Source: an uncultured beta proteobacterium
Lineage (GTDB): Bacteria > Pseudomonadota > Gammaproteobacteria > Burkholderiales > Gallionellaceae
Reading direction: 5' to 3'
Assembly (NCBI GenBank): GCA_963733265.1
Contig: CAVTCF010000006.1
Coordinates: 57,269 to 121,268, forward strand
DNA length: 64,000 nucleotides
Shown here: piece after piece, positions 8,558-38,332 of the stretch
Layout of the letters: every line of letters starts with the position of its first letter
How positions within the stretch are numbered: the stretch's first letter is position 1
The notes under the pieces: model-generated
What the model saw: only the letters and a program-made list of their open reading frames with translations
Databases searched by the model: none
Told to the model about the DNA's origin: nothing
Program-made: the position numbers and the translations under genes

Positions 8558-8565
8558 ATAATGAC

Positions 8566-10540: not shown

Positions 10541-10556
10541 ATCTCGGGACGTTCGA

Positions 10557-12842: not shown

Positions 12843-13303
12843 TTTTTTATGATTATTTTGAAAATGTCAGTCTGAATTTAGGATGTGGATCACCGTACGC
12901 CTGCCTTATTGCAAACACCGTGCGGAAGCACGCGGAGCATTCGACTACGAATTATTGCGACAAGTGAGTCAGTTCTAGGTACAAATCCACAGGTAATGCA
13001 GATTGATCCGCTTTTTTACATCAAATTGGTGCGGGTGAAGGACAGCTCGGTGCTAATGAACAGACGTAAATACCAGGGGATTGTCGGTGAGTTAACCTAC
13101 ACAGACTGTTGCGGGTTACCTGCTGCGGAAAGCGGATTTATTAAATTAGTGACCGGTGTTATTTCAGGTTGAAACTCACGTTGTGCAGAATGCTGAATGA
13201 GCAAGCTCTGCTAGGAACAGACTATTGAGGTTGCCAACCAATTTAATTAGTGCCACGATGTACCCAAGTAGAAATCGTTCATAGCGAAAGTAGGTCGCTC
13301 AAT

Positions 13304-13912
13304 ATGAGACAAGAAGACCCCACATTCATTGCTCTCTACGACTACACCAAGGCGTTGGCAGTTGCTCTGGGACATCGTGATCTATTAACGCGCCTTCATT
13401 CTGATCGCGTGTTTGGCCTTTCCGAGGAAATAGCGGTGGCTCTTGGGCTGGCTAAGAAGGACTTAGGTATTCTTAAAATAGCTGCTTTGTTACATGATGT
13501 TGGCAAAATTGGAATACCTGACAATATCCTTCTTAAGCCATCGAAACATGACGCGGTTGAATGGGAGAAAATGAAAGAGCACTCAACGATAGGTGAAAAT
13601 ATCATGTCTTCGATTGAAATCGAAGGCGCGCCTCGTGCCGCTCTGGTAATTCGACACCACCACGAATACTACAATGGACTTGGTTATCCAGATAGGCTCA
13701 TTGGAGAGGATATTCCAATTTGTTCACGCATTATCTCAATCGCCGATAGCTATGATGCGATGGCCGTAACAAGGTCATACCATAAAGCAAGAACGCATTT
13801 GGAAATCATGTCTATTTTACAGTCCGAAACGGGGGGCAAACACGATCCGAAACTAATGCAGTTTTTTTTCAAAATCATCGAATCCAGCAAATTTAAGGCA
13901 GCCACAAATTAA
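13304..13912 (+). CDS. HD-GYP domain phosphohydrolase (c-di-GMP phosphodiesterase type)
   Basis: ..HSDRV...LHDVGKIGIPD...HHHEYYNGLGYPDRL...IISIADSYDAM.. carries the HD and GYP motifs. The ORF also opens at 13250 with GTG, so the start is uncertain. Confidence 0.8.
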   Translation: MRQEDPTFIALYDYTKALAVALGHRDLLTRLHSDRVFGLSEEIAVALGLAKKDLGILKIAALLHDVGKIGIPDNILLKPSKHDAVEWEKMKEHSTIGENIMSSIEIEGAPRAALVIRHHHEYYNGLGYPDRLIGEDIPICSRIISIADSYDAMAVTRSYHKARTHLEIMSILQSETGGKHDPKLMQFFFKIIESSKFKAATN

Positions 13913-15719: not shown

Positions 15720-15740
15720 AAAAAGAAAAATCCGACAAGC

Positions 15741-15756
15741 TGGCACGTAGATTGCT
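15741..15756 (+). promoter_or_regulatory. sigma-54 (-24/-12) promoter
   Basis: TGGCACgtagaTTGCT matches TGGCAC-N5-TTGCW exactly. It lies about 20 nt after the activator stop and 40-100 nt before the possible hsdR starts. Confidence 0.7.
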
Positions 15757-18700: not shown

Positions 18701-19244
18701 TGCCAGCAAGATCGAGTTCGGTCGCCATATGCCAAAACTTGAAGGGACTGAATTGGTGGCGTACCGGCAACGCGTCGAGCAGGTGCTCGCTGGCTTGTTC
18801 GACACCAACCCGACATTGCGAAAAATTCGTCGCAGCGAACCCGTTGCCGAGTCAGATCTCATGGCCTTGGTCAGCCTGGTGCTTACCCAACATCCTGACG
18901 TGAATCTAACCTGGCTGACCGAGTTTTACCCTGATACCGCTGGCGATCTGGCGACGGCAATCCGTACCATCGTCGGCTTGGAGCCTGAAGTTGTGGCCGA
19001 GCGCTTCGGCGAATTCTTCGCTCGGCATCCACAGCTTTCGGCCAAGCAGCAGCGCTTCATGGCATTGCTGCAAAACCACATCGCCAAGTTTGGCATCGTC
19101 ACTCTGGACAAGCTCTACGAGTCACCATTTACCCAAGTCAGCGAGGATGGCCCCGATGGCGTTTTTGATGATGCCGAGGTTGAAGAATTGATCGCAGTAA
19201 TTGATGGCTTCCACCCTGCCAGCAATCAACGTGTCAACCAATAA
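15795..19244 (+). CDS. hsdR: type I restriction endonuclease R subunit with N-terminal DUF4145 and coiled-coil extension and EcoEI-type C-terminal domain
   Basis: NFEFLRNARADL...LRLFTERVVDLVY (DUF4145-like). ..GYADYVLWDENDKPLGVVEVKR.. (HsdR_N nuclease). LATGTGKT, IIADESHRS and QMIGRGTR (SF2 helicase). The C-terminus ..LSAKQQRFMALLQNHIAKFG.. is EcoEI_R_C-like. An alternative GTG start at 15855 follows GAAGGGGGG. Confidence 0.85.
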   Translation: MHASHTISLSQSATSVEGGRVQSKNFEFLRNARADLAALGGFAEHYAFNDPAGSLAKLRLFTERVVDLVYDAFRLPKPYQPNLNDLLNEDAFRARVPTVVLTKLHALRMHGNKAVHANQGTTPTALAMVLEAFDIARWVFVTFDGGLVSGIHAFVPPTPPADAKKLEKDRQRLLAQIAEQEQQMQAILQQLELAKAQQVTVERTEDELQQLVANGSAAADQLAFDEATTRQRLIDAMLVSVGWKVGQAGASTDEVGQEIEIPQPQNKTGIGYADYVLWDENDKPLGVVEVKRTSKDADVGRTQAELYADGLEQKYGQRPVIFYTNGFDIYIWDDAQKQTPRRLFGFYSKESLKYLVFQRHHKLSLDTLTPKSEIAGRMYQIETLKRICERFSLGYRKSLVVLATGTGKTRVAVSLCELLSRARWAKRILFLCDRRELRKQADDVFKEFLPGEPRIHINSKTAGDVTNRIYLATYPAMMQCYEMFDVGYFDLIIADESHRSIYNRYRDLFVYFDALEVGLTATPVQFISRNTFKLFSCENDDPTSYFGYQEAISHVPPYLVPFEVYTHTTEFLRRGIEYKKLSKEQQEQLENDEADAQSIDYDDTDMDRVVFNKDTNRAILRNLMENGLRDASGSHPGKSIIFARNHNHAVFLAGIFDEMYPQYGGEFCRVIDNYDVRAEQLIDDFKDPKHTLTVAISVDMLDTGIDVPEVVNLVFAKPVKSYVKFWQMIGRGTRLCENLNGPGQDKTKFHIFDHWGNFAYFEESYREANPAISKSLLQKLFETRLQLADTALAVAKADAFDLAIKLLQADIAALPETTIAVREKWREVREVQRAGVLPALSAATRSSLLKDIAPLMQWRDTRNWEAAYQLDLLIGRMQSELLKKSAEFNNLRDDLIGLVAQLPINVNVVRDKLATIEKVRSGDFWKLITDQTDVAALESLREELRGIMRHRVDGPTVGGKPRVLDITEDASKIEFGRHMPKLEGTELVAYRQRVEQVLAGLFDTNPTLRKIRRSEPVAESDLMALVSLVLTQHPDVNLTWLTEFYPDTAGDLATAIRTIVGLEPEVVAERFGEFFARHPQLSAKQQRFMALLQNHIAKFGIVTLDKLYESPFTQVSEDGPDGVFDDAEVEELIAVIDGFHPASNQRVNQ

Positions 19245-19263
19245 TTAAGAACAGGAGAGATTC

Positions 19264-20907
19264 GTGGACAGCCAATTCCTTGCCCTAGTTACAGCCACCA
19301 TCGGCCTGGCCCTTGGCGTGCTGATTACCTGGCTACTGACCCGAGGCAGAATTACCGCCGCTGCCGAGCAGGGTAAAGCCGGGGTTGCGGTCGATCTTGC
19401 CATGGCAAATGAACGAGCGCGCTCCATTGAAGCGGAACGTGGGAAACTGAGTGAGGCGCACGAGCAACTGCAATCACAAGCAAATGGGTGGAAGAACGAA
19501 CTCAACCAAGCCCGTGATGAGCTTTCCAAGCTGAACGAGCGGGCCAGTCGAATTCCTGTGCTTGATGAAAAATTGGTTGGATTAGAAGGTGCATTGGCAG
19601 AAGCGAGCCAGCAGGCCGCCGTCTTGCGCGAAGCCTCCGGTCGCATCAATGCCGAGCTCAAGGCTGAGCGCGAGACCCTAACCTCACTACGCAGCGAATT
19701 CCAGGCGGAAAAGTTACAGCGCACACAGGCCGAGGCGCAGGTCAATAGTCTCACCACGGAAATGGCTGAACTGAACACCCGCCTTGATGCCGAACGCAGA
19801 CAGGCACAGGAAAAGCTCGCGCTGCTGCTGGAAGCCAAGGAAGCACTGTCCAATCAGTTCAAGAGTCTCGCCAACGACATTCTGGAAGAAAAATCCAAGC
19901 GTTTCATCGAACAGAACCAGACCAACATTGGCCAACTCATCAATCCGTTAAAGGATCGGATAATGGAGTTCAAAACCAAGGTTGAGGAAATTCACACCAA
20001 GGATACAGAGCAGCAGGCAACGCTCAAAGCCGAGCTGACTCAACTGAAAGACCTGAATCGCCAAATGACCGAAGAGGCACACGGTCTGGCAACGGCACTT
20101 AAGGGGCAAGCCAAGAAGCAAGGCAATTGGGGCGAGCTGGTTCTCGGCAATGTACTTGACCGCTCTGGCCTGCGCGAGGGTCAAGACTTCAAGCGCGAGG
20201 TCAGCTTCAACACCGAAGAAGGCCGCAAGCGTCCGGACGTCATAATCTACCTGCCTCAGTCGAAGCACTTGGTCATTGATGCCAAGGTCTCTTTGAATGC
20301 CTATACACGGTATGTAAATGCTGAGGACGATATCATTCGGCAGCAGGCATTACAGGAACATGTCAGCGCGGTTGCCAGCAGAATTCAGGAACTATCGAAC
20401 CGAGCCTATTTCGAGCTGCCTGGCCTCAATTCGCCTGAGATGGTCTTCATGTTTATCCCTATTGAATCTGCTTTTGTCGAGGCGCTGCGGGCTGACGAGA
20501 ATCTGTTCCAGAAAGCCATCGAGCAGAACGTGCTGGTAGCCACACCGACCACGCTGCTGACCAGCCTGAATATTGTGCGCCAGCTTTGGCGCTTTGAAGA
20601 GCAAAACGCTCATACCGCCGAACTCGCTGACCGAGCCGGAAAGGTATACAAAAAACTGGTCACCTTCCTTGGCAGTATGGAAACTGTGGGCAAACAGCTC
20701 GACAAGGCAAAAGAATCCTTCAACTCGGCCATGGGGCAACTCTACACCGGCAAGGGCAACCTGATTGGACAAGCCAAGGAATTTGAAAAGCTGGGCGTGT
20801 CTGTGCAGACCCCTTTACCCGAACATCTGGTGGCTAAATCGGCTCTGGAACTTGAACACCTGCCCGAGGTTACCGAAGGCAACGAACTGGAAACCAACGA
20901 ATTATGA
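19264..20907 (+). CDS. rmuC: RmuC-family DNA recombination/nuclease protein
   Basis: An N-terminal TM segment plus a long coiled coil, then ..[27 protein letters not shown]...[22 protein letters not shown].. (RmuC core). GTG start after AGGAGAG. Confidence 0.9.
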
Positions 20908-22415
20908 TCACCAACCAACTCAAAAACGACATCGACCGCCTGTGGCTGGAATTCCATACGGGCGGTATCACCAATCCGCTCACCGTCATCGAGCAGATTT
21001 CTTTCCTGATGTTCGCCCGTCTGCTGGATATCGAAGAAACCCGCTTCGAAAAAATGGCAGGCCGCACTGGAAAATCGCCGCACAAGAATTTCAGCCCCGA
21101 CCAGCAAAACCTGCGCTGGAAGAACTGGAGCGAATATGGCGGCGAGGAAATGCTGCGCCATGTGCGCGATCAGGTTTTCCCTCACCTGCGCGACCTGGGC
21201 GGCAAGAACACCACCTTCGGCGAATACATGAAGGATGCTACCTGCATGGTTTCCAAGGCGAGTCTGCTGGTGTCCGCCGTTACCCAGATCAACTTGTTAC
21301 CGCTCGGCAATAGCGACATCAAAGGCGACCTCTACGAATACATGTTGAGCAAGCTGAGCACGGCTGGCATCAACGGCCAGTTCCGCACCCCCCGCCACAT
21401 CATCAAGCTGATGGTCGAACTGCTCGACCCAAAGCCTACCGAAGTGGTGGGTGATCCGGCCTGTGGCACGGCGGGCTTTCTCGTCGGCATCATGGAATAT
21501 CTGTGCCGACAATACTCGTCGCCGGAACTGGTGGAAACCTTCGAGGATGGCAGCAAGAGTTATCCCGGCGACAGGCTGGAACCCTACCGTGAGCATATCC
21601 AGAACGCAATGTTCCACGGCTTCGATTTCGACGTGACCATGCTGCGCATCGCTGCCATGAACCTGATGCTTCACGGCGTCGAAAATCCGGATATCCATTA
21701 TCAGGATACCCTCTCCAAAAACTTTCCAGAGAAATTCAGGCTGCAAGCCGAAGGGGGATTCGACGTTATCGCTGCCAACCCACCCTTCAAGGGCACCCTG
21801 GACGAAGAGGATGTGCATCCATCGTTGCTGAAGAAGGCCAAGACCAGGAAGACCGAACTATTGTTCGTTGTCCTTATCCTGCGCATGCTCAAGAATGGCG
21901 GACGTTCGGCCACCATTGTTCCAGACGGGGTGATGTTCGGCTCCAGCAAGGCGCATGTGGCATTACGCCAGCATTTGATTGATGAAAACCAACTGGAAGC
22001 AGTGATCTCGCTGCCCTCTGGCGTATTCAAACCGTATGCTGGTGTCTCCACGGCCATCTTGATCTTCACCAAGGGCGGACGGACGGATGATGTCTTGTTT
22101 TACGATGTGCAAGCCGATGGTTTCTCCCTCGACGACAAGCGCCAAGAAATTCCCGAGAACGACCTGCCTGACGTGCTGATCCAGTTTCAACAACACCGTA
22201 CCGCCAGCGCCGACTTTCGTGACCGTACCGCCAAGGCGTTCACGGTACCTGTAGCTAACATTCGCAGTAATAAATATGACCTGTCGGTTAGCAGGTATAA
22301 GGAAACGGTACATAAGGAAGCTCAGTTCGACCCGCCCGCCGATATCCTTAGGCGGATGAAGAATTTGGAGGCTGGGATCATGACGTATATGGATGAGTTG
22401 GAGGCAATGCTTTGA
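20904..22415 (+). CDS. hsdM: type I restriction-modification N6-adenine DNA methyltransferase subunit
   Basis: [10 protein letters not shown] (motif I) and IAANPPFKG (motif IV), with an HsdM_N-like N-terminus. The start overlaps the rmuC stop (ATGA). Confidence 0.9.
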
Positions 22416-23587
22416 TGGATTTTACGTGCCGACCAATTGCTGAATGTGTTCGCAAGGTTAGCCAGATCGCACCCGCCAGCAATTCCAACGACCAGTTCCT
22501 ATACGTCGATCTCTCTTCCATTGATAAGGATGAAAAGCGGATTGTTACGGCTGCGGTACAACGGCTAAATTGGGAAGATGCACCCAGCCGGGCTAGGCAA
22601 CTCGTTCAGGCAGGGGACATTCTGGTATCTACCGTTCGCCCCAATTTGAATGGCGTGGCACAGATTGATGCAAATTACGACGGAGCTATCGCATCAACTG
22701 GTTTCTGTGTGCTGCGTACAAAACCAGATGTTATTGACTCGCGCTATTTGTTTCATTGGCTTTGCAGTCCAAAGTTTGTAGCTGAAATGGTGAAATTGGC
22801 TACAGGTGCGAGCTATCCGGCAGTTTCGGATCGAATCATTTACGAATCATTGATTCCGCTACCAAGGGACGTAAATGAACAGCGCCGCATCGCCACCATC
22901 CTCGATAAAGCCGATGCCATCCGTACAAAACGACGCGAAGTTCTCAGGTTCGCCGATGAATTCCTGCGTTCGGTTTTCCTCGATATGTTCGGTGACCTAT
23001 TTTTCGAGGCGAATAATGAATGGAAAAAGTTGAGTGACTGCACCGATTTTATTGACTACCGGGGCAAAACTCCCGAAAAGTCAGATAGCGGGGTACGCCT
23101 GATTACAGCGAAGAACGTACGTGACGGCGTCATCAATATTGAACCAGCTGAGTTTATTTCAGAGGCAACTTACTCATGGTGGATGAGTCGCGGCTATCCT
23201 CGGTCTGGTGATGTTTTATTCACGACAGAAGCCCCGCTTGGCAATATCGCTGTTCTGAATACGCAAGAGCCAGTTGCTATTGGACAAAGGCTTATTGCTA
23301 TCAGACCTCGCGAGATGCTGCGATGGGATTACCTAAGCTGGGCATTGCGCCAGCGTATCGTCCAAAGTGATATTTTGTCTCGTTCCACTGGATCAACTGT
23401 TAAGGGTATCCGTTCTGCTGAACTTGTGCAGGTACGAATTCCGATTCCAGGAAAGGTCGATCAATTGAAGTTCGAAAAAATCGTCGCTTCAATCAACCAT
23501 CAAAAATCGGGAATGCAAGTGTCTGCACAGCAAGGCGATCTTCTCTTTCAATCGCTACAGCATCAAGCATTCCAAGGGTATCTATAA
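22412..23587 (+). CDS. hsdS: type I restriction-modification specificity subunit
   Basis: Two target-recognition halves are separated by the conserved ..[30 protein letters not shown].. spacer. The most likely start is the ATG at 22415, overlapping the hsdM TGA by 1 nt. Confidence 0.85.
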
Positions 23588-23598
23588 GGATAAAAGCA

Positions 23599-25716
23599 AT
23601 GGCGATGGACATCGAATCAATCAAGGAGCTATTCACCACGTTGCGTTACGTTCGCACCCGCGACACGACTCGGTTCGACGAGTATCTGTCCCCAACGACC
23701 GGCCAATACCTCTATCTCGACAAGGAACGCGCCCTGTCGTCCTCTATTCAAGTCATCATCCATCCCGACCTGAAACTGGAGCCTTTTATTGAGTTGCCCG
23801 GCGTGATATGTCCCACACCGGATAAGCTGATGAAGGATGCGCGTCTACGTCAATTCCCGGAGTGGGGCGGGACGACGCTAATGCTGCACCATGGCCGGGT
23901 GTTGAGTGTGGCATCGCCGGAGGCGCTGGCACATTTCCTCAAGGTTTTCGACACCCCGGCAGGTGGTGCGCGCGCAGGGGATGATCTGCCGCCGCGCCTG
24001 ACCGCCATCGAGCTGGAAAACTTCAAGGGTGTGGGCGGGCGCGTCCGCGTCGAGCTGGCACCCATCACACTGTTGTTCGGCGCCAACAGCGCGGGAAAGA
24101 GCACCATCCTGCAAGCCTTGCAATATGTGCGCGAAGTGCTGGAGCGCCGCAACGCCAACCCGGATCGCACGCTGTACGGTGGGGATTTCGTGGATCTCGG
24201 CGGTTTCCGTAACCTCGTCCATCAACACGATCTCTCCCGCCGCATCGGCATCAAGCTGGAGCTGAACCTCAATCGCGCCAGCCTGCCGGATTTGGTGCCG
24301 GATACATTCGATGAATGGCAAACCGACAATGATGAAGTCTGGGATTTTTATAATTTGCTGCATGAGATTCGGGGGCGCGCCGAGACGGCCAGCATAGAGA
24401 TCACGGTCGCGTGGAGTGGAGTGCGGTCGTCCGCCATCGTGGTCGGCTACGATGTGGGCTTGAACGGCGCGTGGCTCGCGCGCATCAGCAGCCTCGACGA
24501 TGGCCGCGATGCGGAAATCAAGATCAATCCCCAAAATCCGGTTTTCGTACGCTATCGCACTCAGCAGGAAATTGATGACGAAGCCAGCCTGCTGGAAGCG
24601 ATCGGGGCGCCGGATGATGCTGCGTCAACGACCGACCAGCCATCGGCTGAAACCGCTGCAAACGAAGCATCTGCTGACAACGAGCAGGACAACCATCCGT
24701 ACTCGCTTTGGCCTAGCATCCGCCACCGCCTCAGAGAGGCGGAAATCGAGGGAGAAGGACGGGGGTTCCGCCAATGGCTGAGTACGGTTGATGGGGCGTT
24801 GCCCAGGATGGAGCCGTTGCTCTATGTGCCGACCGGCAAGGCTGCCGGTTCTGCGGCGGTGTACATGGCACGCGAATTCACCGCGTTCCTGTCCTCGGCG
24901 ATAGTCGGCCCGGCAGTGCAGATTCGCGATCATTTGCGCAAGCTGCGCTATCTCGGCCCCATACGCAATGTGCCGGATCGCGATTTCGCAGCCTCGCTCA
25001 CGCCGGATGAGGCGCGCTGGGCGGATGGAACGGCGGCGTGGGAAACCTTGCTGACGGGCAATGCCGCCTTGGTCGGCGAGGTCAGCGCATGGATGTCGCG
25101 CGACAACAGGCTTGCCACGGGCTATGAGTTGGAACGGCGGGCTTTCAAGGAAGTGGATGTCACGACGCTGAACTGGCTGATGCGCGCAGCCGATCCCGAT
25201 GCCGGAGTCCGCAGCGAGCCGGAACTGTTGCGCCAATTGGAGCAGACGCCGGAGAAACAGCGGCTTGACCTGCTCGACGCGAAAACGGGGATGCGCGTGC
25301 AGCCGCGTGACGTGGGTATCGGGATTTCGCAGGTGTTGCCGGTCGTAGTGGCGGCGCTGGAACCCTCCTCGTCGTTGGTCGCCATCGAGCAGCCGGAATT
25401 GCACATTCATCCGGCGGTGCAGGTCGGCCTCGGCGACCTGTTCATCAAGGGCGCCAAGGAACACGGCATCAGCTTCCTGGTCGAGACTCACAGCGAACAT
25501 CTCATCCTGCGTCTGCTGCGGAGGATACGCGAAACGGCGGAAGGAGAATTACCCCCCAACACCCTGGCGCTCAAGACCGATGATGTCAGCGTGGTGTATG
25601 TGCAGCCCGGTGAGGGAGGCGTCAAACTGGTTCCCTTACCAATTGATGAAACGGGCGAATTCACTACTCGCTGGCCCAAGGGATTCTTCGACGAAAGAGC
25701 CGAGGAGCTATTCTGA
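23599..25716 (+). CDS. ABC/SMC-like AAA ATPase (AAA_15/21 type) with DUF3696-like C-terminus and a ~125-aa N-terminal extension
   Basis: ..IELENFKGV...LLFGANSAGKST (Walker A), ..LVAIEQPELHIHP (Walker B/D-loop), ETHSEHL (H-loop), and a tail ..VYVQPGEGG...TRWPKGFFDE. Confidence 0.8.
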   Translation: MAMDIESIKELFTTLRYVRTRDTTRFDEYLSPTTGQYLYLDKERALSSSIQVIIHPDLKLEPFIELPGVICPTPDKLMKDARLRQFPEWGGTTLMLHHGRVLSVASPEALAHFLKVFDTPAGGARAGDDLPPRLTAIELENFKGVGGRVRVELAPITLLFGANSAGKSTILQALQYVREVLERRNANPDRTLYGGDFVDLGGFRNLVHQHDLSRRIGIKLELNLNRASLPDLVPDTFDEWQTDNDEVWDFYNLLHEIRGRAETASIEITVAWSGVRSSAIVVGYDVGLNGAWLARISSLDDGRDAEIKINPQNPVFVRYRTQQEIDDEASLLEAIGAPDDAASTTDQPSAETAANEASADNEQDNHPYSLWPSIRHRLREAEIEGEGRGFRQWLSTVDGALPRMEPLLYVPTGKAAGSAAVYMAREFTAFLSSAIVGPAVQIRDHLRKLRYLGPIRNVPDRDFAASLTPDEARWADGTAAWETLLTGNAALVGEVSAWMSRDNRLATGYELERRAFKEVDVTTLNWLMRAADPDAGVRSEPELLRQLEQTPEKQRLDLLDAKTGMRVQPRDVGIGISQVLPVVVAALEPSSSLVAIEQPELHIHPAVQVGLGDLFIKGAKEHGISFLVETHSEHLILRLLRRIRETAEGELPPNTLALKTDDVSVVYVQPGEGGVKLVPLPIDETGEFTTRWPKGFFDERAEELF

Positions 25717-26591
25717 TGATCAAGGAGTTCGCGCTTGAGCCGGATGTGTTGGCGGTATCATTTCGGGATTTCAGCTACTTCATCGAAAAGTTCGGGGTAG
25801 CGCAGGGGCGCGTTATTTCGCGTTTCCCGAAGGACTGGAAGCGGATGGTGTACGAGGCAGCACAGGCCAGCCTGCGAGGCACCAAGGAATTGAGCCGTAT
25901 CGAAATCAGGCTCAGAGCCATCACGGATGATGTGCTGATTGCATCGCGACGCCCCAGTGGCGATGGCACACAACCTTGGCTGACCAGAGCGATGAGCGAG
26001 CATGGCCGCCAGCCGTTTGCCGCCATCATCGCCCGCGAAAATCCAACAGCACATACCGAAGTGCTCGTCGCCGCCGACCTGGATGATTCCGATTTGCGTT
26101 TTCAGGCTGCTGGTCAGCGACACATTACTCGCACAGCGGCAGAGATCGTTGATTGCGTGGGTTTGCTCCTTGGTGCGTCAAAAACGGTGAAATTGATCGA
26201 CCCGCATTTTGATCCGCGCTGGCCGCGCTGGCGGAGAATGCTCGGGCATGTATTGGTTGCTTTAGGCAACAACGGGCAGACCGGAGTAACACTGGAAATT
26301 CACCGCGCGGATAACGCGTTGCCCGGCAATTTGAAACACTATTTCGATTCAAGCATTCCAAAAATGCTTCCTACCGGGATCACCGTACAGGTCTTCCTGC
26401 ACCCGGAATCAGCGATGCATAACCGTTTCATCCTCACCAGCGTTGGTGGTGCCTCATACCACACCGGCCTAGACGATAACGAGGATGGGAAATCCACACC
26501 CACGGATTTAGTGTCGTTATTGGCACCGGGCATATTTGCAACAGAGTGGACGACATATTCAAGTCAAACGGCATTTTTGGTCTATCCATGA
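25716..26591 (+). CDS. hypothetical protein (291 aa), translationally coupled partner of the ATPase
   Basis: The start overlaps the ATPase stop (TGATG). I recognise no domain. There is a conserved-looking C-terminal stretch ..VFLHPESAMHNRFILTSVGGASYHTGLDD.. Confidence 0.7.
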   Translation: MIKEFALEPDVLAVSFRDFSYFIEKFGVAQGRVISRFPKDWKRMVYEAAQASLRGTKELSRIEIRLRAITDDVLIASRRPSGDGTQPWLTRAMSEHGRQPFAAIIARENPTAHTEVLVAADLDDSDLRFQAAGQRHITRTAAEIVDCVGLLLGASKTVKLIDPHFDPRWPRWRRMLGHVLVALGNNGQTGVTLEIHRADNALPGNLKHYFDSSIPKMLPTGITVQVFLHPESAMHNRFILTSVGGASYHTGLDDNEDGKSTPTDLVSLLAPGIFATEWTTYSSQTAFLVYP

Positions 26592-29500
26592 TTGGGTGAA
26601 CGAGTGATGACCCCAGATAAATGGATCAAGGAGTTATTAAACAGCAAGAATCTTGAACGTCCTGATGGGCGGATGCTCTATGGCTATCGGTTAAGTAATG
26701 AAGAGTACAAATCATTACGCGAGATGCTGGCTTACACTGCGGATTTCGGAGAGCTGGACGAGGTATCAAGCCGAATTCGCGGATTTTCGGCATTGTTTGT
26801 CCTCTATGCTGCCGAATGGTGGCGGCGCGAATACCAAGGTGGGGCATGGCGGTGGACATCAATCATTAGCGCTTTTGGCGGTAATGCGAAGGAACTTGAT
26901 GCTGCAGCAAGAACTAGGTGTGTAATTAGCGGCTTCGCATTCTGGGGACATCGTCCAGATGGAGAGGGCAAGAAATTCTTTGGTGCAATCGTCGCACACG
27001 GTGGGCTACCGCTTAACCTCATTGGGCAAGGTGGCGGCAAGTTGGCTTCGATCATGGATTCCACGTTGCGCCTCGCAGCGCGTTACCACTGGGACAGTTT
27101 GCAAATCGTCAATGCAATTGAAGAGCGGGCTGAAGAGTTTCCGGCAGCAAGTTTGCGCTGCCCGGAAATCTACCAGTTAATTGCCAGCATGGTTGTTGCG
27201 GTGCTGGAGCTGAAGCAGGAATTCCGTCTTACGGGAATTGCAGATCCTGTGGCCGTTTTAAATACGCAGGAACCAAGCTGGCGCCTACGTTTCCCACTTT
27301 CCTTAGAGGACGCTGCTGCTCAAGCATTATTGTCAGGGTTAGTGAAAGAGGCTGCACAGCAGCTCATGTTTGCATCCTCCGTCATATTTTCTGTTGAGAG
27401 AATGTTGCGAAAAACTGCGGACGGCAAGTATGAATTGACCTCAGTGCTGGCATGTCCACAAACTTTGGCTGCCGACACACTGGCAGAATTGTTTGGCTTG
27501 AACGAATTGCCGCGCTACTTCTCGATTGATGTTCAGGTGGATGAACGCAAACCGTTTTGCGAAGGTCGCCAGATTCTGGGAGCGGATACAGCAACCGTGT
27601 CGCTTGCTGGCGGCAAATGTGTTTGGAATGGTGTTGATGCCTGTTCGGAGCATCTGCTCTATCTGCGCGGACAAAGCGGTGATCTACGGGAAAATCCGCT
27701 TCCGATTCCAGGTGGCGCTGAACTTTCTCAAGATGAGCCATGGATTTTCGTTTTGCGCGATGGGAAACTAAGGTGGGTTGGTGCGGGCAGTGCGCGCGTT
27801 CCAGAAGAGGAGGCGGTCGTTGCACTTCCTGGTGGGTGGGGAATTGAACCCGCGAACGCAGACTCAATAGCCGACATTGTCGGACATTGCCATTTGGGCG
27901 ATCAACAGATAGCGCTCTATTCTGTGCGCGGTGAAATGACGTTGAGAAGATGCGAACAGCATTATCGGATTCGCACCAAGCAGGCAACGAGCGCGTCCGA
28001 CACTTATGTGTGGGAAGGTCGCCGAATTGCTTACCCTTCCAGTCCACAGCCAGTGTTTATCGGAGTTCCGAAGCTTTTTCGCTATCCGCCTGAAGGTGAG
28101 CGTAGCCGCGTACCGACTGCAGAACTGCACTGGTTTGCGGCGGGAACGAACAGCCGATTTGAAGATGCAACAAACGCACATGGCCCGCTTGATGTCTACT
28201 TGGTGCGGGAGGGGGAGCGGCTGGCTCGCTTTCGTTTCGTAGTGCTGGACAGTTCAGCGCGTACAGACTTCTCATCTAGTACATCGGCAAGCGAAGGACA
28301 TATTCATCTGGAGGGTTGGGGCTGTTCGGACGTTTCGATTGACGATCAACCTGGACTTCATTGCAAAGTTGAACAGGCCGGACGTGGTGTAAAACTACTT
28401 CTACAGGGCGGCGATGTCCCACCTGAGTCAGTAAGCGTTGTCATGCGTTGGCAACGTTGCGCACAGGAGTTGCGAATAAAGCTGCCTTTCCCCAGTGCGG
28501 GCGGTCGGTTTTTCGATGCAAAGGAACAGCCATTGCGCGAGGGGGATGAAATCGCACTTCGCCATCTGACCGGTGCGCGTCTGCGTATTTTTGATCGCAA
28601 TCCACTGGCACCTAAGCGGTATGACGTGTCGCTGACGTTGGGGCAAGGGAAGCGGGAAATGCGTAGCGCCGATCTAAAAATTGAGCATCCAATTTCACTG
28701 TTACCCAACGGTTCGGCAGAGATCAGGCTGATTGACCTGCAAAAGGACATAGAGAAACTGATGAGTTTCTCGGACGAGTTGGATGCAACCGTGAATGTGG
28801 CGGTGCTTGTGAGTAGCAGGCCGACTACAGCAGTGCGAGTTTCGCGCTATGAGACTGTGTTTGAACGAGACTCTCTTGCTGTAAGTTTTCCTCCAAAAGC
28901 CATTGAGCGATTAGATATGGCATCTCTGGAGCAAATTATTGTCAAGGCAGCACCGTTAACCAGCCTGGGTGGAGCATGTATCCAATTGGAGCAAGAATAC
29001 TCAGAGGGTGTGCCTGTCGCATGTTGGCAAGCTGCCGGACTGAATGCCACTTATTCGCCGTGGCTGATTTTTCCGGATGACGCATCCAGCGTTTTTTTCA
29101 GGCCGACGATATGGGGTAGGTCAGTTGATTCTCCTGAGATGGACACAAATTCAGGTTGCCCGCTCGCACAGGCGATGGCTATCCGGGAAGCGGAAGTCCG
29201 GATGGAAACTATAGCGGCGATACTCGACGCAATGGCAACAGACTTCAACCACCCATCGTGGCAATTGATGGAATATTTGTTGGAAACATTCCATCACTTG
29301 CCGCTCAGCAGCTTGGATGTCTTCCGGTTGATTGGGGCGCAACCGACGGCTGCTGTTTCCCTGTTGCTGCGCAGCCAATTTTCAGAAGATCGGTTGTTTG
29401 AATTTGCCCGCCGACTGCGTGACGAATTGGGCTTGGTATGGGAACTTGCCTCTATTGATATATGGCGGAATGCTGCCAGTAAGTTATATCAATATTGGGT

Positions 29501-30125
29501 TGCAACGCTTGGGGAAGATGATGCAAAGGCCAGCTTTCCGATTATTCTTAAAGTCCGTCTGGATCGGTTAGCAGGTGAGCATCCGCCCCTGCAATTGATG
29601 CTGGATGTGCTATTGCTGGAATTGACCAACCATCCGAGTGATGCGCTTGTTGAGGTTCAGCGCGTTTCGCAGGGAGACCGCTTGGCATTTGCGTACCAGC
29701 TTTGGCGCGGCCATGATTCGCTGGCGCAAAATCTTCTGTTTCGTGGTCATGCAAATGATGCGGAATGGCCTGAACGACCACTGTTTGAAGCAGCCTTTAC
29801 AGGATTCCTCGAAGTCGTAGCTGATTCGGTGAAGAATAAATTGAATCCAGATATTGTTAAAAAGATGTTTTGGATGGATACGCCTAAAGATTTCAAGGTG
29901 TCGGTTGCAAATATCCCGGTGCTTTGCGCGCTTTGGGCTGTTACCGGCACCAGCCAGGAGTGGTGGAGAAAGCCGGAACGCAGGCTGGCGCTCCGCAAGA
30001 TCAAAGCATTTGACCCCATCTGGTTTGAGCAAGCGTTTGGTAAGGCTGTTGCAGCCTGTCTCGCGTTAGGTATCCTCGTGCCGGGAGAAATGAATGTTGG
30101 GTACACCAAAATAATGCCCACCTGA
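26592..30125 (+). CDS. large uncharacterised protein (about 1170 aa), DruH-like by size and position
   Basis: An uninterrupted ORF with no recognisable motif, immediately upstream of the DruE-like helicase. The likely start is the ATG at 26607. Confidence 0.6.
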   Translation: MGERVMTPDKWIKELLNSKNLERPDGRMLYGYRLSNEEYKSLREMLAYTADFGELDEVSSRIRGFSALFVLYAAEWWRREYQGGAWRWTSIISAFGGNAKELDAAARTRCVISGFAFWGHRPDGEGKKFFGAIVAHGGLPLNLIGQGGGKLASIMDSTLRLAARYHWDSLQIVNAIEERAEEFPAASLRCPEIYQLIASMVVAVLELKQEFRLTGIADPVAVLNTQEPSWRLRFPLSLEDAAAQALLSGLVKEAAQQLMFASSVIFSVERMLRKTADGKYELTSVLACPQTLAADTLAELFGLNELPRYFSIDVQVDERKPFCEGRQILGADTATVSLAGGKCVWNGVDACSEHLLYLRGQSGDLRENPLPIPGGAELSQDEPWIFVLRDGKLRWVGAGSARVPEEEAVVALPGGWGIEPANADSIADIVGHCHLGDQQIALYSVRGEMTLRRCEQHYRIRTKQATSASDTYVWEGRRIAYPSSPQPVFIGVPKLFRYPPEGERSRVPTAELHWFAAGTNSRFEDATNAHGPLDVYLVREGERLARFRFVVLDSSARTDFSSSTSASEGHIHLEGWGCSDVSIDDQPGLHCKVEQAGRGVKLLLQGGDVPPESVSVVMRWQRCAQELRIKLPFPSAGGRFFDAKEQPLREGDEIALRHLTGARLRIFDRNPLAPKRYDVSLTLGQGKREMRSADLKIEHPISLLPNGSAEIRLIDLQKDIEKLMSFSDELDATVNVAVLVSSRPTTAVRVSRYETVFERDSLAVSFPPKAIERLDMASLEQIIVKAAPLTSLGGACIQLEQEYSEGVPVACWQAAGLNATYSPWLIFPDDASSVFFRPTIWGRSVDSPEMDTNSGCPLAQAMAIREAEVRMETIAAILDAMATDFNHPSWQLMEYLLETFHHLPLSSLDVFRLIGAQPTAAVSLLLRSQFSEDRLFEFARRLRDELGLVWELASIDIWRNAASKLYQYWVATLGEDDAKASFPIILKVRLDRLAGEHPPLQLMLDVLLLELTNHPSDALVEVQRVSQGDRLAFAYQLWRGHDSLAQNLLFRGHANDAEWPERPLFEAAFTGFLEVVADSVKNKLNPDIVKKMFWMDTPKDFKVSVANIPVLCALWAVTGTSQEWWRKPERRLALRKIKAFDPIWFEQAFGKAVAACLALGILVPGEMNVGYTKIMPT

Positions 30126-30154
30126 ATGACAATCAATCAATAAATTGGTGTTCG

Positions 30155-33100
30155 ATGAAAAAACAATATTTCTCTTCCCTACTACCTGAGCTTTCGACTC
30201 GTGCAGCGCGTGCGACTGTGAGCCGTTTGGGGTTTTCAAGCCCTGAGTTAAGAGCGTATCTGAGCGAACTTTTTTCGCGAGGGTTTGGCGAACCGGGAAG
30301 TTATCTCGGCGATCCGGTTTTCGAGGCAACTTTTGGCTGGGAACCGGCTGACCAGACGATGACTTCCTTGTCACCTGCGTTGTTGTCTCCCAGTCTAATC
30401 GGGGCAATGGACAAGCCTATGGGGAGCGAGGCAAGCGACTACCGTTTTCCGCGCGACATCGCTCCTTATAAACACCAACTCGAAGCATGGGAATGGCTGA
30501 CACGCGAACAGCCGCAGTCGGTTGTTGTAACCAGCGGGACCGGATCTGGAAAAACCGAGTGCTTTATGGTGCCGATACTCAACTCACTGGTACGCGAGCA
30601 TGAGGTGAGCAGAGCTAAACTGGTTGGCGTTCGCGCGCTGTTTTTGTATCCGCTAAACGCACTGATTCAAAGTCAGCGCGAGCGGTTGCATGCATGGACA
30701 GGAGCATTTGGCGATGCTGTCCGGTTTTGCTTGTATAACGGACTGACGCCACAAAAGGAGCCTCAGCATGTACGGGACAAAACCCCCAATCAGGTGATCG
30801 ACCGAGAGGCACTGAGAGCCGCGCCGCCACCCATGCTGGTAACCAATGCCACTATGCTGGAGTACATGTTGGTGCGAGCACAGGATGCGCCCATTCTCGA
30901 TGCATCGCAAGGCAAGCTTCAGTGGATTGTGCTGGATGAAGCACATACCTACATTGGTTCGCAGGCTGCGGAACTGGCCTTGCTGTTGCGTAGGGTGCTG
31001 CACGCCTTTGGCGTTTCGAGCAATCAGGTTCGTTTTGTCGCAACCTCCGCCACCATAGGCGATCCTCACGGCGAGGCGGGGCAACAATTGCGCGCCTTTC
31101 TAGCTGGCTTGGCTGGTGTGGATGAAGACCGTGTACATGTCGTTACCGGGCAGCGGAAAATTCCTGACCTGTTGGCGGGTAGCGCGCAATATCAGAATGC
31201 CCCTCTCGAAGAGCTGGAAGATATATTGCTGGAGGGCGGCGAACGGTACAACGCCTTATGCGCGAATCGCACTGCGCGCCGAATTCGTCAGATGTTCGTC
31301 CCCGGTGCAGAAGGAAAACCCGCCAACTCTTTCTCTGATATTGCACCAGCCATTCTTGGGAATGATTGGCGGCAGCAGCCAAACGCAACTGAAATTACGC
31401 TACGCTGGCTCGACTTGCTTACCAGTGCAAAATCAGCCGGAAAAAATGAGCAGCCGTTCCTGCCGTTGCGTCTCCATGCATTCCACAACGTGCTGGCTGG
31501 ATTGTGGGCGTGCTGCGATTCTACCTGTGCGTGTAAAAGTGGCACGGCACTTGATTCCCCGGAATGGCATTATGGCAAGATTTACACGGAAGAACGCCGA
31601 CACTGTGAATGCGGCTCGCCAGTATTTGAACTGCGCTCATGCAATGACTGCAACACCACTTTTTTGTGGGCGCAGCGTATCGGCCCCGACCGTGATGGAA
31701 AGTACCACCTGTGGCAAGTTCAAGAGGATTCCGATGACGAATTTTCGCTAGATGTTGAAGTGCCCGAGGACGATCTGGGAGGGGACGAACAGGATGGAAC
31801 AGAAATCTCCGCAATTGCATCCCAGAAAAAACCAGTGCTAATTGCAAATGGCTACGCGATTGGCACAGGAGAAGCTTTGATTGAGCGTATATCTTTGGTA
31901 TTCGATCCGCCAGAAATTTCGGATGCCATCAGGCTGCGCTTGAAGGATGAGCAGGATGGCATGATGGTTTGTCCGGATTGTGGCGGACATCATGGCAATG
32001 GGAAGCTGATGTTCCGCAAAGCCATTCTGGGCGCACCTTTCTTGTTGAGTGAAATTATTCCAACTCTGCTGGAGTATTGCCCTGACATTGAAGGCAAAGG
32101 TATCAGTCCGCTAGAACGGCCTTTACGCGGGCGGCGCATGATTACCTTTACCGACAGCCGGCAGGGTACGGCACGTATTGCCGCAAAACTGCAACAGGAC
32201 TCCGAACGCAACCGAGTACGCGGCCTGATCTACCAGCACGTAGCGCAGAAAACTCAAGCGGGTGGCAATTTGGAAGTGGCGGCACTTCAGCAGGAAATAG
32301 CTACCTTGAAAATGGTAAATAATTCTGCTTTGTCCAAGTTGATTTTGGAAAAGGAAAATAAACTCGCAGCACACCAGCCGAAGCCCATCACTTTTAATAA
32401 TGCTGCGGACTATTTGAGCAGCGTCGAGGCGGACACCAAAGACTGGATACATCAGTATTATTCCGATCTTGATCCCGCAGAATTTAGTGGGGCGACGGGC
32501 AAGGAAAAACTTGCGCGCATACTTGTCATGCGCGAGTTCGCGCGCAGGCCGAAGCGCGCAAACAGCTTGGAAACAATGGGGTTGGTGGCGGTTCGTTATC
32601 CCAAGCTGGAATCGGTTACGCAACTGCCAAAGTTTCCAGATGGAACGGCAAGACTGACCTTGCCTGAGTGGCAAGACTTCCTGAAAATTGCGCTAGATTT
32701 TCATGTTCGGGAGAACACATTCGTTAACCTCCCTGATAGCTGGCGAAAATGGGGTGGTCAGCGACTGTCCGGAAAAAAATTACTCCCGCCAGAATCGAAA
32801 GAGAAGCAATCCAACCAAATCAAGAAATGGCCGCAATGTAATCCTGCCGGGATGCAAAACCGTTTGGTGAGGTTATTGGGCTACGTGTTGAAACTCGATC
32901 CGGCCTCTGCCCACGGTCGGGATGCTCTTGATGGAATCTTGAGATGCGCGTGGGATGATTTGACCCGCGTGGGTCTATTGCAAGTCGCAAGCACTGGACG
33001 CTATCTCGCTTTGGAGGATATGGCGTTTGCCCCTATCAGCAAGGGATGGGTATGCCCGGTAACACGGCGCGTACTGGACGTAACCTTGAAAGGTGTGACG

Positions 33101-38023: not shown

Positions 38024-38332
38024 TTATAGGAATGTGTAAGAATTTGAAACCTCAATTTTCGACACAAGCCCTGACTTGTTTAGATAAATAAACACAAGGA
38101 CAGATTTATCAAAAGCACAATTCTCTCCCCTGATATTTGACTGGTATCGTTGTTGATATTCGTCGTAACTAAATTCAATTCCACGGCTTTTCAGCACAAG
38201 CTCGGCTTTTTCACGAGAATCGCCGACATGCAGGTCTTTGTGCAGTTCGGCGCTAATCTTTTCTTTGTCCAAATCTGCGCAGCATGAACTAAGTGACACA
38301 ACGGCCAATACCACCCAAAGAAGTTTCATCAT
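38024..38332 (-). CDS. small lipoprotein, candidate immunity protein for the Rhs C-terminal toxin
   Basis: MMKLLWVVLAVVSLSSC carries a lipobox. The start overlaps the Rhs stop by 4 nt and the gene sits directly downstream of the toxin tail. Confidence 0.55.
   Translation of the reverse strand: MMKLLWVVLAVVSLSSCCADLDKEKISAELHKDLHVGDSREKAELVLKSRGIEFSYDEYQQRYQSNIRGENCAFDKSVLVFIYLNKSGLVSKIEVSNSYTFL

What the first reader, a model, noticed from the sequence alone, without database searches (positions are those of the whole stretch)
23599..26591. Uncharacterised two-gene module: DUF3696-type ABC ATPase plus a 291-aa partner with no known nuclease motif, wedged between hsdS and the Druantia-like genes
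The 705-aa protein has the SMC/ABC-like ATPase signature used by Septu PtuA, PARIS AriA, Gabija GajA and OLD proteins (GANSAGKST ... IEQPELHIHP ... ETHSEHL). It also has a DUF3696-like tail and an extra ~125-aa N-domain.

Its translationally coupled partner shows none of the effector motifs I would expect: no HNH, and no TOPRIM/DUF4435 E..DxD. The partner does have a conserved-looking C-terminal HNRFILTSVGGASYHTGLDD stretch. This is vaguely reminiscent of H-x-K/R nuclease or PLD-type signatures but does not fit the HKD spacing.

The pair is markedly more G+C-rich than its neighbours, so it looks like an inserted cassette. It is a plausible new ATPase-plus-effector defence pair, or an accessory part of a new Druantia subtype.
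Basis: partly seen in the sequence, partly recalled or inferred. Interest (0 to 1): 0.7.

Follow-up and report, generated by a model that had tools for sequence, protein, structure and literature searches.

The report
ABC ATPase plus PLD-like effector pair
These two overlapping genes are a real, widespread and unnamed pair, an ABC-type ATPase with a partner that has a phospholipase-D-type (probably nuclease) fold, and they look like a bacterial anti-phage module whose operon is switched on by an RtcR-like, sigma-54-dependent regulator and often also holds a Type I restriction system.

Summary

- **ATPase:** it is most like Menshen NsnB, HEC-03 and PDC-M55 ATPases. It has a DUF3696 tail and an unusual Walker B, hhhhEQPE.
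- **Partner:** it has no hit in Pfam, PADLOC v2, NCBIfam or PDB sequences. A confident AlphaFold model shows a C-terminal phospholipase-D fold. The family motif is HxR(x)4[D/E/N], the canonical HKD spacing with K replaced by R. The N-terminal domain is weakly PIN-like.
- **Family size and linkage:** about 2,500 clusters at 50% identity. In 110 of 110 loci with enough upstream sequence, the ATPase lies directly upstream.
- **Druantia:** not a Druantia part. DruH/DruE follow the pair in only about 5 of 76 lineages.
- **Menshen:** no NsnA gene accompanies the pair, so it is not Menshen proper.
- **New finding:** the pair sits at or near the end of operons headed by an RtcR-like sigma-54 activator. 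A consensus -24/-12 promoter follows the activator's stop codon (window 15741-15755). A Type I R-M system is often inserted between promoter and pair, as in this window.

Verdict: a new variant of the known "ABC ATPase + effector" defence kind. Function is untested.

The parts
14217..15719 (+). RtcR-like sigma-54-dependent activator (bEBP): CARF-like RtcR N-domain, AAA+ sigma-54 interaction domain, Fis-type HTH
   Evidence: Pfam: Sigma54_activat 1.7e-70; RtcR 4.7e-6 (26.6 bits, cutoff 23.1); HTH_8. Orthologues 47-79% identical head the operon in about 20 other partner lineages.
15741..15755 (+). Consensus sigma-54 promoter (-24/-12) TGGCACGTAGATTGC, 22 bp after the activator's stop codon and 40 bp before the hsdR ATG
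   Evidence: It is the only zero-mismatch match in the 64 kb window. The same element lies 1-116 bp after the activator's stop in every locus that has the activator on the same strand upstream of the operon: 0 mismatches in 17 of 29 rows, at most 2 in the rest.
15795..23587 (+). Type I R-M block inserted between the promoter and the pair: hsdR 15795-19244, RmuC-like 19264-20907, hsdM 20904-22415, hsdS 22412-23587
   Evidence: Pfam and PADLOC hits: REase_I 2.6e-298, RmuC 8.4e-98, MTase_I 3.6e-175, Specificity_I 2.5e-61. Gaps between genes are at most 19 bp or the genes overlap.
23599..25716 (+). ABC/SMC-type ATPase (705 aa), NsnB/HEC-03/PDC-M55-like. Clade-specific N-domain aa 1-~130 (23599-23991); Walker A 24079-24105; GxG signature 25309-25332; Walker B 'IEQPE' within 25384-25413; H-loop 25483-25503; DUF3696 tail 25573-25707
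   Evidence: EQPE was the Walker B in all 61 of the 87 partner-linked ATPases in which a simple pattern search located the motif. The N-domain occurs only in the window, L001, L008, L011 and L013.
25716..26591 (+). Effector candidate (291 aa). N-terminal alpha/beta domain, weakly PIN-like (aa 1-~130, 25716-26105); C-terminal PLD-fold domain (aa ~134-291, 26115-26588) with VKLIDPHF (26187-26210; D162 invariant) and HNR motif (26418-26477; H235 and R237 invariant)
   Evidence: AF2 full length pLDDT 94.6, pTM 0.90. Foldseek finds the PLD superfamily. N-domain model pLDDT 92; best hit is PIN protein 1o4w, E 0.03. Invariant residues.
26592..36445 (+). Neighbouring, separate system in the same transcription unit: Druantia type III (DruH 26592-30125, DruE 30155-36445)
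   Evidence: PADLOC: DruH 3e-128; DruE3 E=0 (2362 bits). NCBIfam: YjiT_fam 1.6e-187. It rarely accompanies the pair elsewhere.

Best explanation
The pair is a self-contained two-gene anti-phage module of the 'ABC ATPase + bound effector' kind. In effect it is a Menshen-like NsnB/NsnC core without the NsnA sensor. It is a conserved cassette, usually the last conserved one, of operons driven by an RtcR-like sigma-54 activator.

Proposed mechanism (steps marked shown or inferred):
1. The RtcR-like activator fires the -24/-12 promoter directly after its own gene and induces the downstream operon. Gene and promoter are shown. [quoted passage not shown]
2. Here the operon is hsdR-RmuC-hsdM-hsdS-ATPase-partner-DruH-DruE.
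3. The ATPase oligomerises. Its Walker B reads E-Q instead of D-E, so it probably binds ATP but hydrolyses it slowly. Its C-terminal DUF3696 helices hold the partner's N-terminal PIN-like domain (inferred from published Menshen AlphaFold 3 models).
4. A phage cue sensed by the ATPase changes or releases the partner (inferred).
5. The partner's single-motif PLD domain (D162, H235, R237) must pair with a second copy to form an active site, as in Nuc, BfiI and Zucchini. It then cuts nucleic-acid phosphodiester bonds, stopping the phage or the infected cell (inferred).
For: ATPase identity:
- PADLOC NsnB 1.6e-45, PDC-M55A 2.6e-42, HEC-03 ATPase model 5.4e-41; Pfam DUF3696.
- Walker B is EQPE wherever it could be located among partner-linked ATPases (61 of 87). 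NsnB has 'EN' and a GxG signature (PMC12065111).

Partner:
- AF2 pLDDT 94.6.
- Foldseek matches PLD, PLD3/4, SauUSI, MITD1, Nuc, NucT and Zucchini at probability about 1.0.
- D162, H235 and R237 are invariant in 74 diverse members.
- 2 of 74 members weakly hit Pfam MIT_C, and 2 of 74 hit PADLOC BrxL. This matches the 'PB-PLD1 / HDR' NsnC effector class described in PMC12065111.
- The N-domain's best fold hit is a PIN domain.

Linkage:
- ATPase directly upstream in 110/110 loci. Gaps are mostly within -4 to +4 nt; a cluster of 15-17 loci at about -46 nt reflects my start-codon calls in the Nitrotoga loci.
- The family has about 2,545 clusters at 50% identity.

Regulation:
- The activator is directly upstream in 12 of 45 informative lineages, and upstream of an intervening Type I R-M in 8 more.
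- A sigma-54 element follows the activator's stop in all such loci.
- 14/14 activators have the sigma-54 domain and 8/14 hit Pfam RtcR.

Precedent:
- HEC-03 (ABC ATPase + PIN protein) is experimentally protective and needs both genes (10.1101/2024.01.29.577857).
- RtcR-led defence superoperons with Type I R-M and Druantia III are described for CoCoNuTs (PMC11090510).
Against: - No experiment exists on this family.
- The PLD motif has Arg where all characterised PLD enzymes have Lys. The closest fold clade (MIT_C of MITD1) is known as a membrane-binding domain, not an enzyme. Catalysis is therefore unproven.
- The PIN-like assignment of the N-domain is weak (E 0.03, TM about 0.41).
- ATPase-partner binding was not modelled here.
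- The partner matches no PADLOC effector model of Menshen, HEC-03 or PDC-M55.
- About half of the informative loci show no activator in the sequence available. Some have another regulator: a WYL-domain protein heads the operon on a Methylocella plasmid.
- Nitrotoga loci have no activator.
Confidence: 0.6

Rival explanations
1. The pair is an accessory or guard of the Type I R-M system. It would work like PrrC or PARIS, firing when a phage anti-restriction protein disables the R-M enzyme. Alternatively it could supply a nuclease arm to HsdM/HsdS.
For: - In 30 of 45 informative lineages the pair lies downstream of hsdS/hsdM in the same operon, usually with a gap of about 10-20 bp.
- Nitrotoga genomes carry RmuC-hsdM-hsdS-ATPase-partner with no hsdR within 8 kb.
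- Type I R-M loci are known to embed ATPase-nuclease guards: PrrC and HEC/PDC cassettes, and RloB (PMC12065111).
Against: - 12 of 45 lineages have activator -> ATPase -> partner with no R-M genes at all.
- A Deinococcus plasmid copy also lacks R-M.
- R-M is therefore not required for the pair to persist.
- This reading overlaps with the main explanation; it concerns the trigger rather than the architecture.
Confidence: 0.25
2. The pair is a decayed or partial Menshen system that has lost NsnA.
For: The best PADLOC hit of the ATPase is NsnB. The partner has the NsnC-like two-part layout, and a PLD class of NsnC exists.
Against: - No ParB/DUF262 family appeared among the Pfam families shown for 57 upstream neighbour proteins. 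Only the top 25 of 44 families were displayed.
- One GmrSD_N/DUF262 hit occurred among 121 downstream neighbours, on the wrong side.
- The NsnA-less layout is conserved across about 76 lineages and has its own regulator. That is not what decay looks like.
Confidence: 0.08
3. The pair is a component of a new Druantia subtype.
For: It abuts DruH with no gap, on the same strand, here and in Accumulibacter loci.
Against: - DruH or DruE follow the pair in only about 5 of 76 lineages.
- Azonexus, Sulfuritalea, Nitrotoga and most metagenome loci lack them.
- DruH plus DruE alone define type III Druantia.
Confidence: 0.03
4. The PLD-like domain is not an enzyme. It would be a binding module, as in MITD1, and the pair would be a sensor or regulator of neighbouring systems rather than an effector.
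For: K is replaced by R in the HKD motif. There are weak MIT_C hits and MITD1 is among the fold matches.
Against: - D162, H235 and R237 are invariant across members only about 28-40% identical.
- No other candidate effector is conserved next to the pair.
- Analogous pairs always carry a toxic effector.
Confidence: 0.15

Closest known systems
Menshen (NsnA-NsnB-NsnC), especially NsnC proteins with the PB-PLD1 effector domain (Li et al. NAR 2025, PMC12065111)
   Same: - ABC ATPase with a DUF3696 tail and a non-canonical Walker B.
- An overlapping downstream gene with an N-terminal (in)PIN-like domain and a C-terminal effector.
- A PLD/MIT_C-like effector with a conserved acidic residue and an H-x-R motif.
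- Frequent linkage to Type I R-M.
   Different: - No NsnA (ParB-DUF262) gene, which is the defining sensor of Menshen.
- The partner matches no PADLOC NsnC model.
- The operon is headed by an RtcR-like sigma-54 activator instead.
- Direct sequence comparison with PB-PLD1 proteins could not be made.
HEC-03 and PDC-M55 (Payne et al. preprint 10.1101/2024.01.29.577857; PADLOC v2)
   Same: - Two-gene ABC ATPase + small effector cassettes found embedded in methylase/R-M-type systems.
- The ATPase hits both models at about 1e-41.
- HEC-03 is experimentally protective and needs both genes.
   Different: - The HEC-03 effector is a VapC-like PIN protein with no PLD domain.
- The window partner and 74 relatives hit neither effector model.
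RtcR-led defence 'superoperons' of Type II CoCoNuTs (Bell et al. eLife 2024, PMC11090510)
   Same: - An RtcR homologue at the 5' end.
- Type I R-M (often with an RmuC/ShdA-like gene) directly after it.
- All genes co-directional and tightly spaced.
- Druantia type III can follow.
   Different: - No McrBC-type CoCoNuT genes in the window.
- The ATPase-PLD pair occupies the slot where the CoCoNuT usually sits.
PARIS (AriA/AriB), Septu (PtuA/PtuB), Gabija (GajA/GajB)
   Same: An ABC/OLD-type ATPase that holds or controls a nuclease partner. They are likely analogues for the mechanism.
   Different: - Their effectors are TOPRIM/DUF4435 or HNH, or a UvrD-like helicase in Gabija.
- ATPase similarity is far weaker (E 1e-19 to 1e-11).
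- They have no DUF3696 tail.

Membership tests
Menshen | NsnA (ParB-DUF262 + ParBDB) gene immediately upstream of the ATPase | tested here: not met
   Upstream is hsdS in the window. Across 45 informative lineages it is hsdS/hsdM (26), the RtcR-like activator (12) or another gene (7). No DUF262/ParB family appeared in the displayed Pfam counts for 57 upstream neighbours.
Menshen | NsnB: ABC ATPase with C-terminal DUF3696 and a degenerate Walker B | tested here: met
   PADLOC NsnB 1.6e-45; Pfam DUF3696 27.2 bits (cutoff 22); Walker B IEQPE; GIG signature.
Menshen | NsnC: N-terminal inactive PIN-like domain | tested here: inconclusive
   The N-domain model (pLDDT 92) has PIN protein 1o4w as its best Foldseek hit, but only at E 0.03, probability 0.85, TM 0.41. 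No conserved D-E-D-D set was found.
Menshen | NsnC: C-terminal effector domain of a listed class (here PB-PLD1, with an acidic residue plus HDR motif) | tested here: inconclusive
   The PLD fold is met and a D...H-x-R motif is present, with weak MIT_C hits. No PB-PLD1 sequence was available for direct comparison, and no PADLOC NsnC hit was found.
HEC-03 / PDC-M55 | Both proteins match the system's two PADLOC models | tested here: not met
   The ATPase matches (5.4e-41 and 2.6e-42). The partner and 74 relatives match no HEC or PDC model.
Phospholipase D superfamily | PLD alpha/beta fold | tested here: met
   35 Foldseek PDB matches at E<=1e-3, all shown with probability 0.97-1.0: PLD, PLD2/3/4, Nuc 1byr, NucT 6ehi, SauUSI 7clg, MITD1 2ymb (all at E<=1e-3); Zucchini 4ggj ranks just below the cut-off at E 1.2e-3.
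Phospholipase D superfamily | Catalytic HxK(x)4D motif | tested here: not met
   The spacing is kept, but Lys is Arg in all 74 members. The window protein has Ser at the Asp position.
Druantia type III | The gene co-occurs with DruH and DruE | tested here: not met
   DruH/DruE are adjacent to the pair in about 5 of 76 lineages only.
PARIS / Septu | Partner is a DUF4435/TOPRIM (AriB) or HNH (PtuB) nuclease | tested here: not met
   No such Pfam or PADLOC hit. The fold is PLD.
RtcR-led defence superoperon | RtcR homologue at the 5' end, sigma-54 promoter, co-directional tightly spaced defence genes | tested here: met
   Eight genes from 15795 to 36445 are on one strand with gaps of at most 29 bp. 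Few sigma-70-like sites lie inside: 4 against 12.5 expected.
RtcR-led defence superoperon | Contains a CoCoNuT (McrB/McrC-type) module | tested here: not met
   No McrB/McrC-like domains among the window ORFs scanned.

The most novel reading that the evidence does not exclude
The ATPase-PLD pair is the dedicated output of an RNA-damage-sensing, RtcR-like/sigma-54 inducible immune circuit. It would be a second-line effector, functionally analogous to CoCoNuTs, transcribed together with a Type I R-M system only after infection is sensed. Its HxR-type PLD domain would be a catalytically active nuclease of a clade so far regarded as non-enzymatic (MIT_C-like).
Probability: 0.3. Interest if true: 0.7.

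Novelty: new variant of a known kind. Interest (0 to 1): 0.55.

Why it matters
- **An unlisted candidate defence module.** It would add a widespread module (about 2,500 clusters at 50% identity, in at least Alpha- and Betaproteobacteria and Deinococcota, plus many metagenome contigs of unknown taxonomy) that PADLOC v2, Pfam and NCBIfam do not recognise. RefSeq labels it 'AAA family ATPase + hypothetical protein'.
- **The NsnB-type core can work without NsnA.** It shows that the NsnB-type ATPase/effector core exists without the NsnA sensor.
- **A test of MIT_C/BrxL-type catalysis.** It offers an HxR variant of the PLD active site, which can test whether MIT_C/BrxL-type PLD domains are enzymes.
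- **A tractable case of transcriptional control of immunity.** Dedicated RtcR-like sigma-54 activators appear to control restriction and abortive modules as one unit. The system is compact: one activator, one promoter and two genes in the simplest loci.

Tried and rejected
- **Sequence searches of the partner.** Pfam, PADLOC (E up to 10), NCBIfam (E up to 1) and PDB sequences (single sequence and two profiles) gave nothing meaningful. Only structure prediction revealed the fold.
- **Diverse alignment for locus search.** The search for related loci with the diverse alignment A2 failed for lack of a conserved stretch. A1 returned only close relatives. A motif-selected sub-alignment (A3) then gave 80 diverse metagenome loci.
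- **ATPase N-terminal domain (aa 1-131).** There was no PDB hit and no homologue by word-indexed search. It aligns only within the Rhodocyclales-type clade, so its function is left open.
- **Apparent N-extensions in L053 and L089.** These are Arg-rich ORF over-extensions, not the same domain.
- **'Inserted high-GC cassette'.** Rejected as an argument, because only the ATPase is GC-rich.
- **Druantia accessory.** Rejected on co-occurrence.
- **A conserved third gene downstream.** Rejected, because downstream neighbours are heterogeneous: SNF2 helicases, Fic, TIR, Schlafen, SIR2+DUF87, housekeeping genes.
- **Phage-borne copies.** None found.
- **The sigma-54 motif in the window alone.** It is not statistically compelling by itself: 1 match against 0.22 expected, and 19 of 100 shuffles had at least one. 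Its weight comes from its position and from recurrence in all other loci where the activator lies upstream on the same strand.
Full report
**1. Observation**

The window has ORFs at 23599-25716 (+, 705 aa) and 25716-26591 (+, 291 aa). All quoted motifs are present: GANSAGKST at aa 161-169, IEQPELHIHP at 596-605, ETHSEHL at 629-635, and HNRFILTSVGGASYHTGLDD at partner aa 235-254. The ATPase stop and the partner start overlap as TGATG.

Pfam gives AAA_21 (2.7e-18), AAA_15 (7.3e-17) and a DUF3696 tail (27.2 bits, cutoff 22). The partner hits nothing in Pfam, PADLOC (even at E up to 10), NCBIfam or PDB sequences.

- Upstream: hsdR, an RmuC-like gene, hsdM and hsdS.
- Downstream: DruH (3e-128; YjiT_fam 1.6e-187) and DruE3 (2362 bits). 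Together these form a complete type III Druantia.

Two details need correcting. First, only the ATPase is G+C-rich (60.5%). The partner (54.5%) resembles hsdR and hsdM. Second, the HNR stretch does fit HKD spacing once the whole family is considered (see section 2).

**2. What the two proteins are**

*ATPase.* It is far closer to Menshen NsnB (1.6e-45), PDC-M55A (2.6e-42) and the HEC-03 ATPase model (5.4e-41) than to AriA (4e-19), GajA (1e-11) or Old. NCBIfam MAD3 and PtuA hits fall far below their cutoffs.

Its Walker B reads hhhhEQPE. That was the motif in all 61 of the 87 partner-linked ATPases in which a simple pattern search located it. NsnB is described with 'EN' in place of the D-E dyad and GxG in place of SGG (PMC12065111). 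The window protein has GIGISQ at the signature position.

About 130 extra N-terminal residues occur only in the window and four related Rhodocyclales-type loci. They have no detectable relatives.

*Partner.* It folds with high confidence (pLDDT 94.6, pTM 0.90). Its C-terminal half is a phospholipase-D fold. The 35 Foldseek PDB matches at E<=1e-3 have probability 0.97-1.0 among those shown; they include bacterial PLD, PLD2/3/4, SauUSI, MITD1, Nuc and NucT, with Zucchini just below that cut-off at E 1.2e-3.

In 74 diverse relatives (mean column identity 28%) the invariant residues include D162, H235 and R237. The motifs are hhhhDP[YH]F and hHxR[YF][IV]LT[D/E/N]xGG. This is HxK(x)4D spacing with Lys replaced by Arg.

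Two of the 74 members weakly hit Pfam MIT_C, and two hit PADLOC BrxL. This matches the 'PB-PLD1' NsnC effector class, which is described as MIT_C-like with a conserved acidic residue and an HDR motif (PMC12065111).

The N-terminal 130 residues were modelled alone (pLDDT 92). The best match is a PIN-domain protein, 1o4w, but only weakly (E 0.03, TM 0.41). No PIN acidic tetrad is conserved. This is compatible with the 'inactive PIN' domain of NsnC but does not prove it.

**3. Family and linkage**

A profile search finds 2,545 cluster representatives at 50% identity with E<=1e-3, and 766 with E<=1e-30. Among the 150 best listed, nearly all are about 280-330 aa with full-length matches.

I collected 124 loci from genomes, metagenomes and plasmids. 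The gene-neighbourhood counts below cover the first 122, L001-L122.
- In 110 of 110 loci with enough upstream sequence, the ATPase is the adjacent upstream gene on the same strand. Gaps are mostly within -4 to +4 nt. A cluster of 15-17 loci at about -46 nt reflects my start-codon calls in the Nitrotoga loci.
- Downstream neighbours are heterogeneous, with no conserved third gene.
- No ParB/DUF262 (NsnA) gene accompanies the pair. It was absent from the Pfam families displayed for 57 upstream proteins. Only the top 25 of 44 families were shown, so a single weak hit cannot be excluded.
- DruH/DruE follow the pair in only about 5 of 76 lineages.
- RefSeq annotates plasmid copies as 'AAA family ATPase' plus 'hypothetical protein'.
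- No copies were found in the phage collection.

**4. The wider unit: an RtcR-like sigma-54 operon**

Gene 14217-15719 encodes a sigma-54 activator with an RtcR-type (CARF-like) N-domain. A perfect -24/-12 element, TGGCACGTAGATTGC, lies 22 bp after its stop codon, at 15741-15755, and 40 bp before the hsdR start. It is the only perfect match in the window.

Eight genes follow on one strand, from 15795 to 36445, with gaps of at most 29 bp. Few sigma-70-like sites lie inside this stretch: 4 against 12.5 expected.

The same arrangement recurs among partner lineages clustered at 80% identity. Of the 45 with informative upstream sequence:

| Upstream context of the ATPase | Lineages |
|---|---|
| Activator directly upstream of the ATPase | 12 |
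| hsdS/hsdM directly upstream of the ATPase | 26 |
| R-M genes further upstream of the ATPase | 4 |
| Neither | 3 |

Among the lineages with hsdS directly upstream, 8 show the activator upstream of hsdR, 10 are cut before that point, and 2 lack it.

In every locus with the activator on the same strand upstream, a sigma-54 element lies 1-116 bp after its stop codon, often 3-4 bp after. It has 0 mismatches in 17 of the 29 rows listed and at most 2 in the rest.

The activators are 47-79% identical to the window's, even where the partners are only about 30-40% identical. All 14 tested have the sigma-54 domain, and 8 of 14 hit Pfam RtcR.

This layout has been described for Type II CoCoNuTs: an RtcR homologue, then Type I R-M (often with an RmuC/ShdA-like gene), then further systems, with Druantia III sometimes last (PMC11090510). 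Here the ATPase-PLD pair takes the place of the CoCoNuT. No McrBC-like genes are in the window.

Variants exist:
- A WYL-domain regulator heads the same operon on a Methylocella plasmid.
- Nitrotoga genomes carry RmuC-hsdM-hsdS-ATPase-partner with neither the activator nor hsdR nearby.

**5. Most likely mechanism**

*Shown:* the domain identities, the strict gene coupling, the regulator, and the promoter motif.

*Inferred:*
- The RtcR-like activator responds to an infection-linked ligand and induces the operon. [quoted passage not shown]
- The ATPase oligomer clamps the partner's N-domain with its DUF3696 helices. Published AlphaFold 3 models of 25 Menshen NsnB4-NsnC2 complexes show this.
- A phage cue alters or releases the partner.
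- Two single-motif PLD domains pair to build an active site, as in Nuc, BfiI and Zucchini (established knowledge of the family), and cut nucleic acid.

HEC-03, an ABC ATPase + PIN pair that needs both genes and is toxic when over-induced, is the nearest experimental precedent.

The weakest link is catalysis, because of the K-to-R change and the MIT_C resemblance.

**6. Rivals**

- **Guard or accessory of Type I R-M.** The strong positional link and the hsdR-less Nitrotoga cassettes favour it. The 12 R-M-free lineages argue against a strict dependence.
- **Decayed Menshen.** Unlikely, because the NsnA-less layout is conserved and has its own regulator.
- **Druantia component.** Refuted by the co-occurrence counts.
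- **Non-catalytic PLD-like domain.** This remains open.

**7. Verdict**

The pair is a real, widespread and unnamed two-gene module. It is a new variant of the known 'ABC ATPase + effector' defence kind, closest to the Menshen NsnB/NsnC core and to HEC-03. It is embedded here in an RtcR-like/sigma-54 superoperon together with a Type I R-M system and Druantia III. It fails the defining Menshen test (no NsnA), so I do not file it as Menshen. Function and mechanism are untested. Interest is moderate (0.55).

Noticed in passing
window 14217-15755: An RtcR-like sigma-54 activator is followed by a perfect -24/-12 promoter. This implies that a Type I R-M system and Druantia III may be transcribed from a sigma-54 promoter, which is unusual for R-M genes.
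   Followed up: yes
window 19264-20907: An RmuC-family gene (547 aa; PADLOC RTasRmuC 1.3e-110) is embedded between hsdR and hsdM. It is conserved in the Azonexus, Sulfuritalea and Nitrotoga loci. It resembles the ShdA/RmuC insert noted in RtcR-linked Type I R-M loci of Pseudomonas (PMC11090510).
   Followed up: partly
window 23599-23991: The ~130-aa N-terminal domain of the ATPase is conserved only in a small clade (window, L001, L008, L011, L013). It has no detectable homologues or PDB match. It may be a clade-specific sensor.
   Followed up: partly
L002, L016-L035 (Candidatus Nitrotoga and related Nitrosomonadales genomes and MAGs): A five-gene cassette RmuC-hsdM-hsdS(half-size, ~244 aa)-ATPase-partner sits among housekeeping genes. 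It has no hsdR and no activator within 8-10 kb. The pair and/or RmuC might replace HsdR there.
   Followed up: partly
L001 4525-5199; L013 2541-3218: A uracil-DNA-glycosylase-family gene is inserted between RmuC/hsdR and hsdM in the Azonexus and Accumulibacter aalborgensis versions of the operon.
   Followed up: no
L123 (Methylocella tundrae plasmid NZ_LR536452.1) 298-13334: The same hsdR-hsdM-hsdS-ATPase-partner operon is headed by a WYL-domain regulator instead of the RtcR-like activator. It is followed by SIR2 + DUF87 genes, and L036 also carries a SIR2/DUF87 pair.
   Followed up: partly
L046, L052, L059: Two ATPase genes of this family lie in tandem upstream of a single partner gene.
   Followed up: no
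window 36745-37692 and 38329-46154 (- strand): An IS element (rve integrase) lies directly after DruE. Beyond it, on the opposite strand, are a 1562-aa RHS-repeat protein (DUF6531) and a 1048-aa transglutaminase-like protein. The IS may have truncated the superoperon.
   Followed up: no
window 2836-13912: The upstream part of the window looks like a mobile island. It holds a NYN-domain protein, an integrase (4263-5288), an AAA_14/DUF4143 ATPase (6403-7851), IS transposases (9025-10410 and 10802-11764) and an HD-domain protein (13250-13912).
   Followed up: no
L124 (Deinococcus sp. AJ005 plasmid p96k) 10664-15192: Near the ATPase-partner pair lies a DUF2357 (McrC N-terminal) gene plus an AAA ATPase gene. 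This is a possible McrBC/CoCoNuT-type system on the opposite strand.
   Followed up: no
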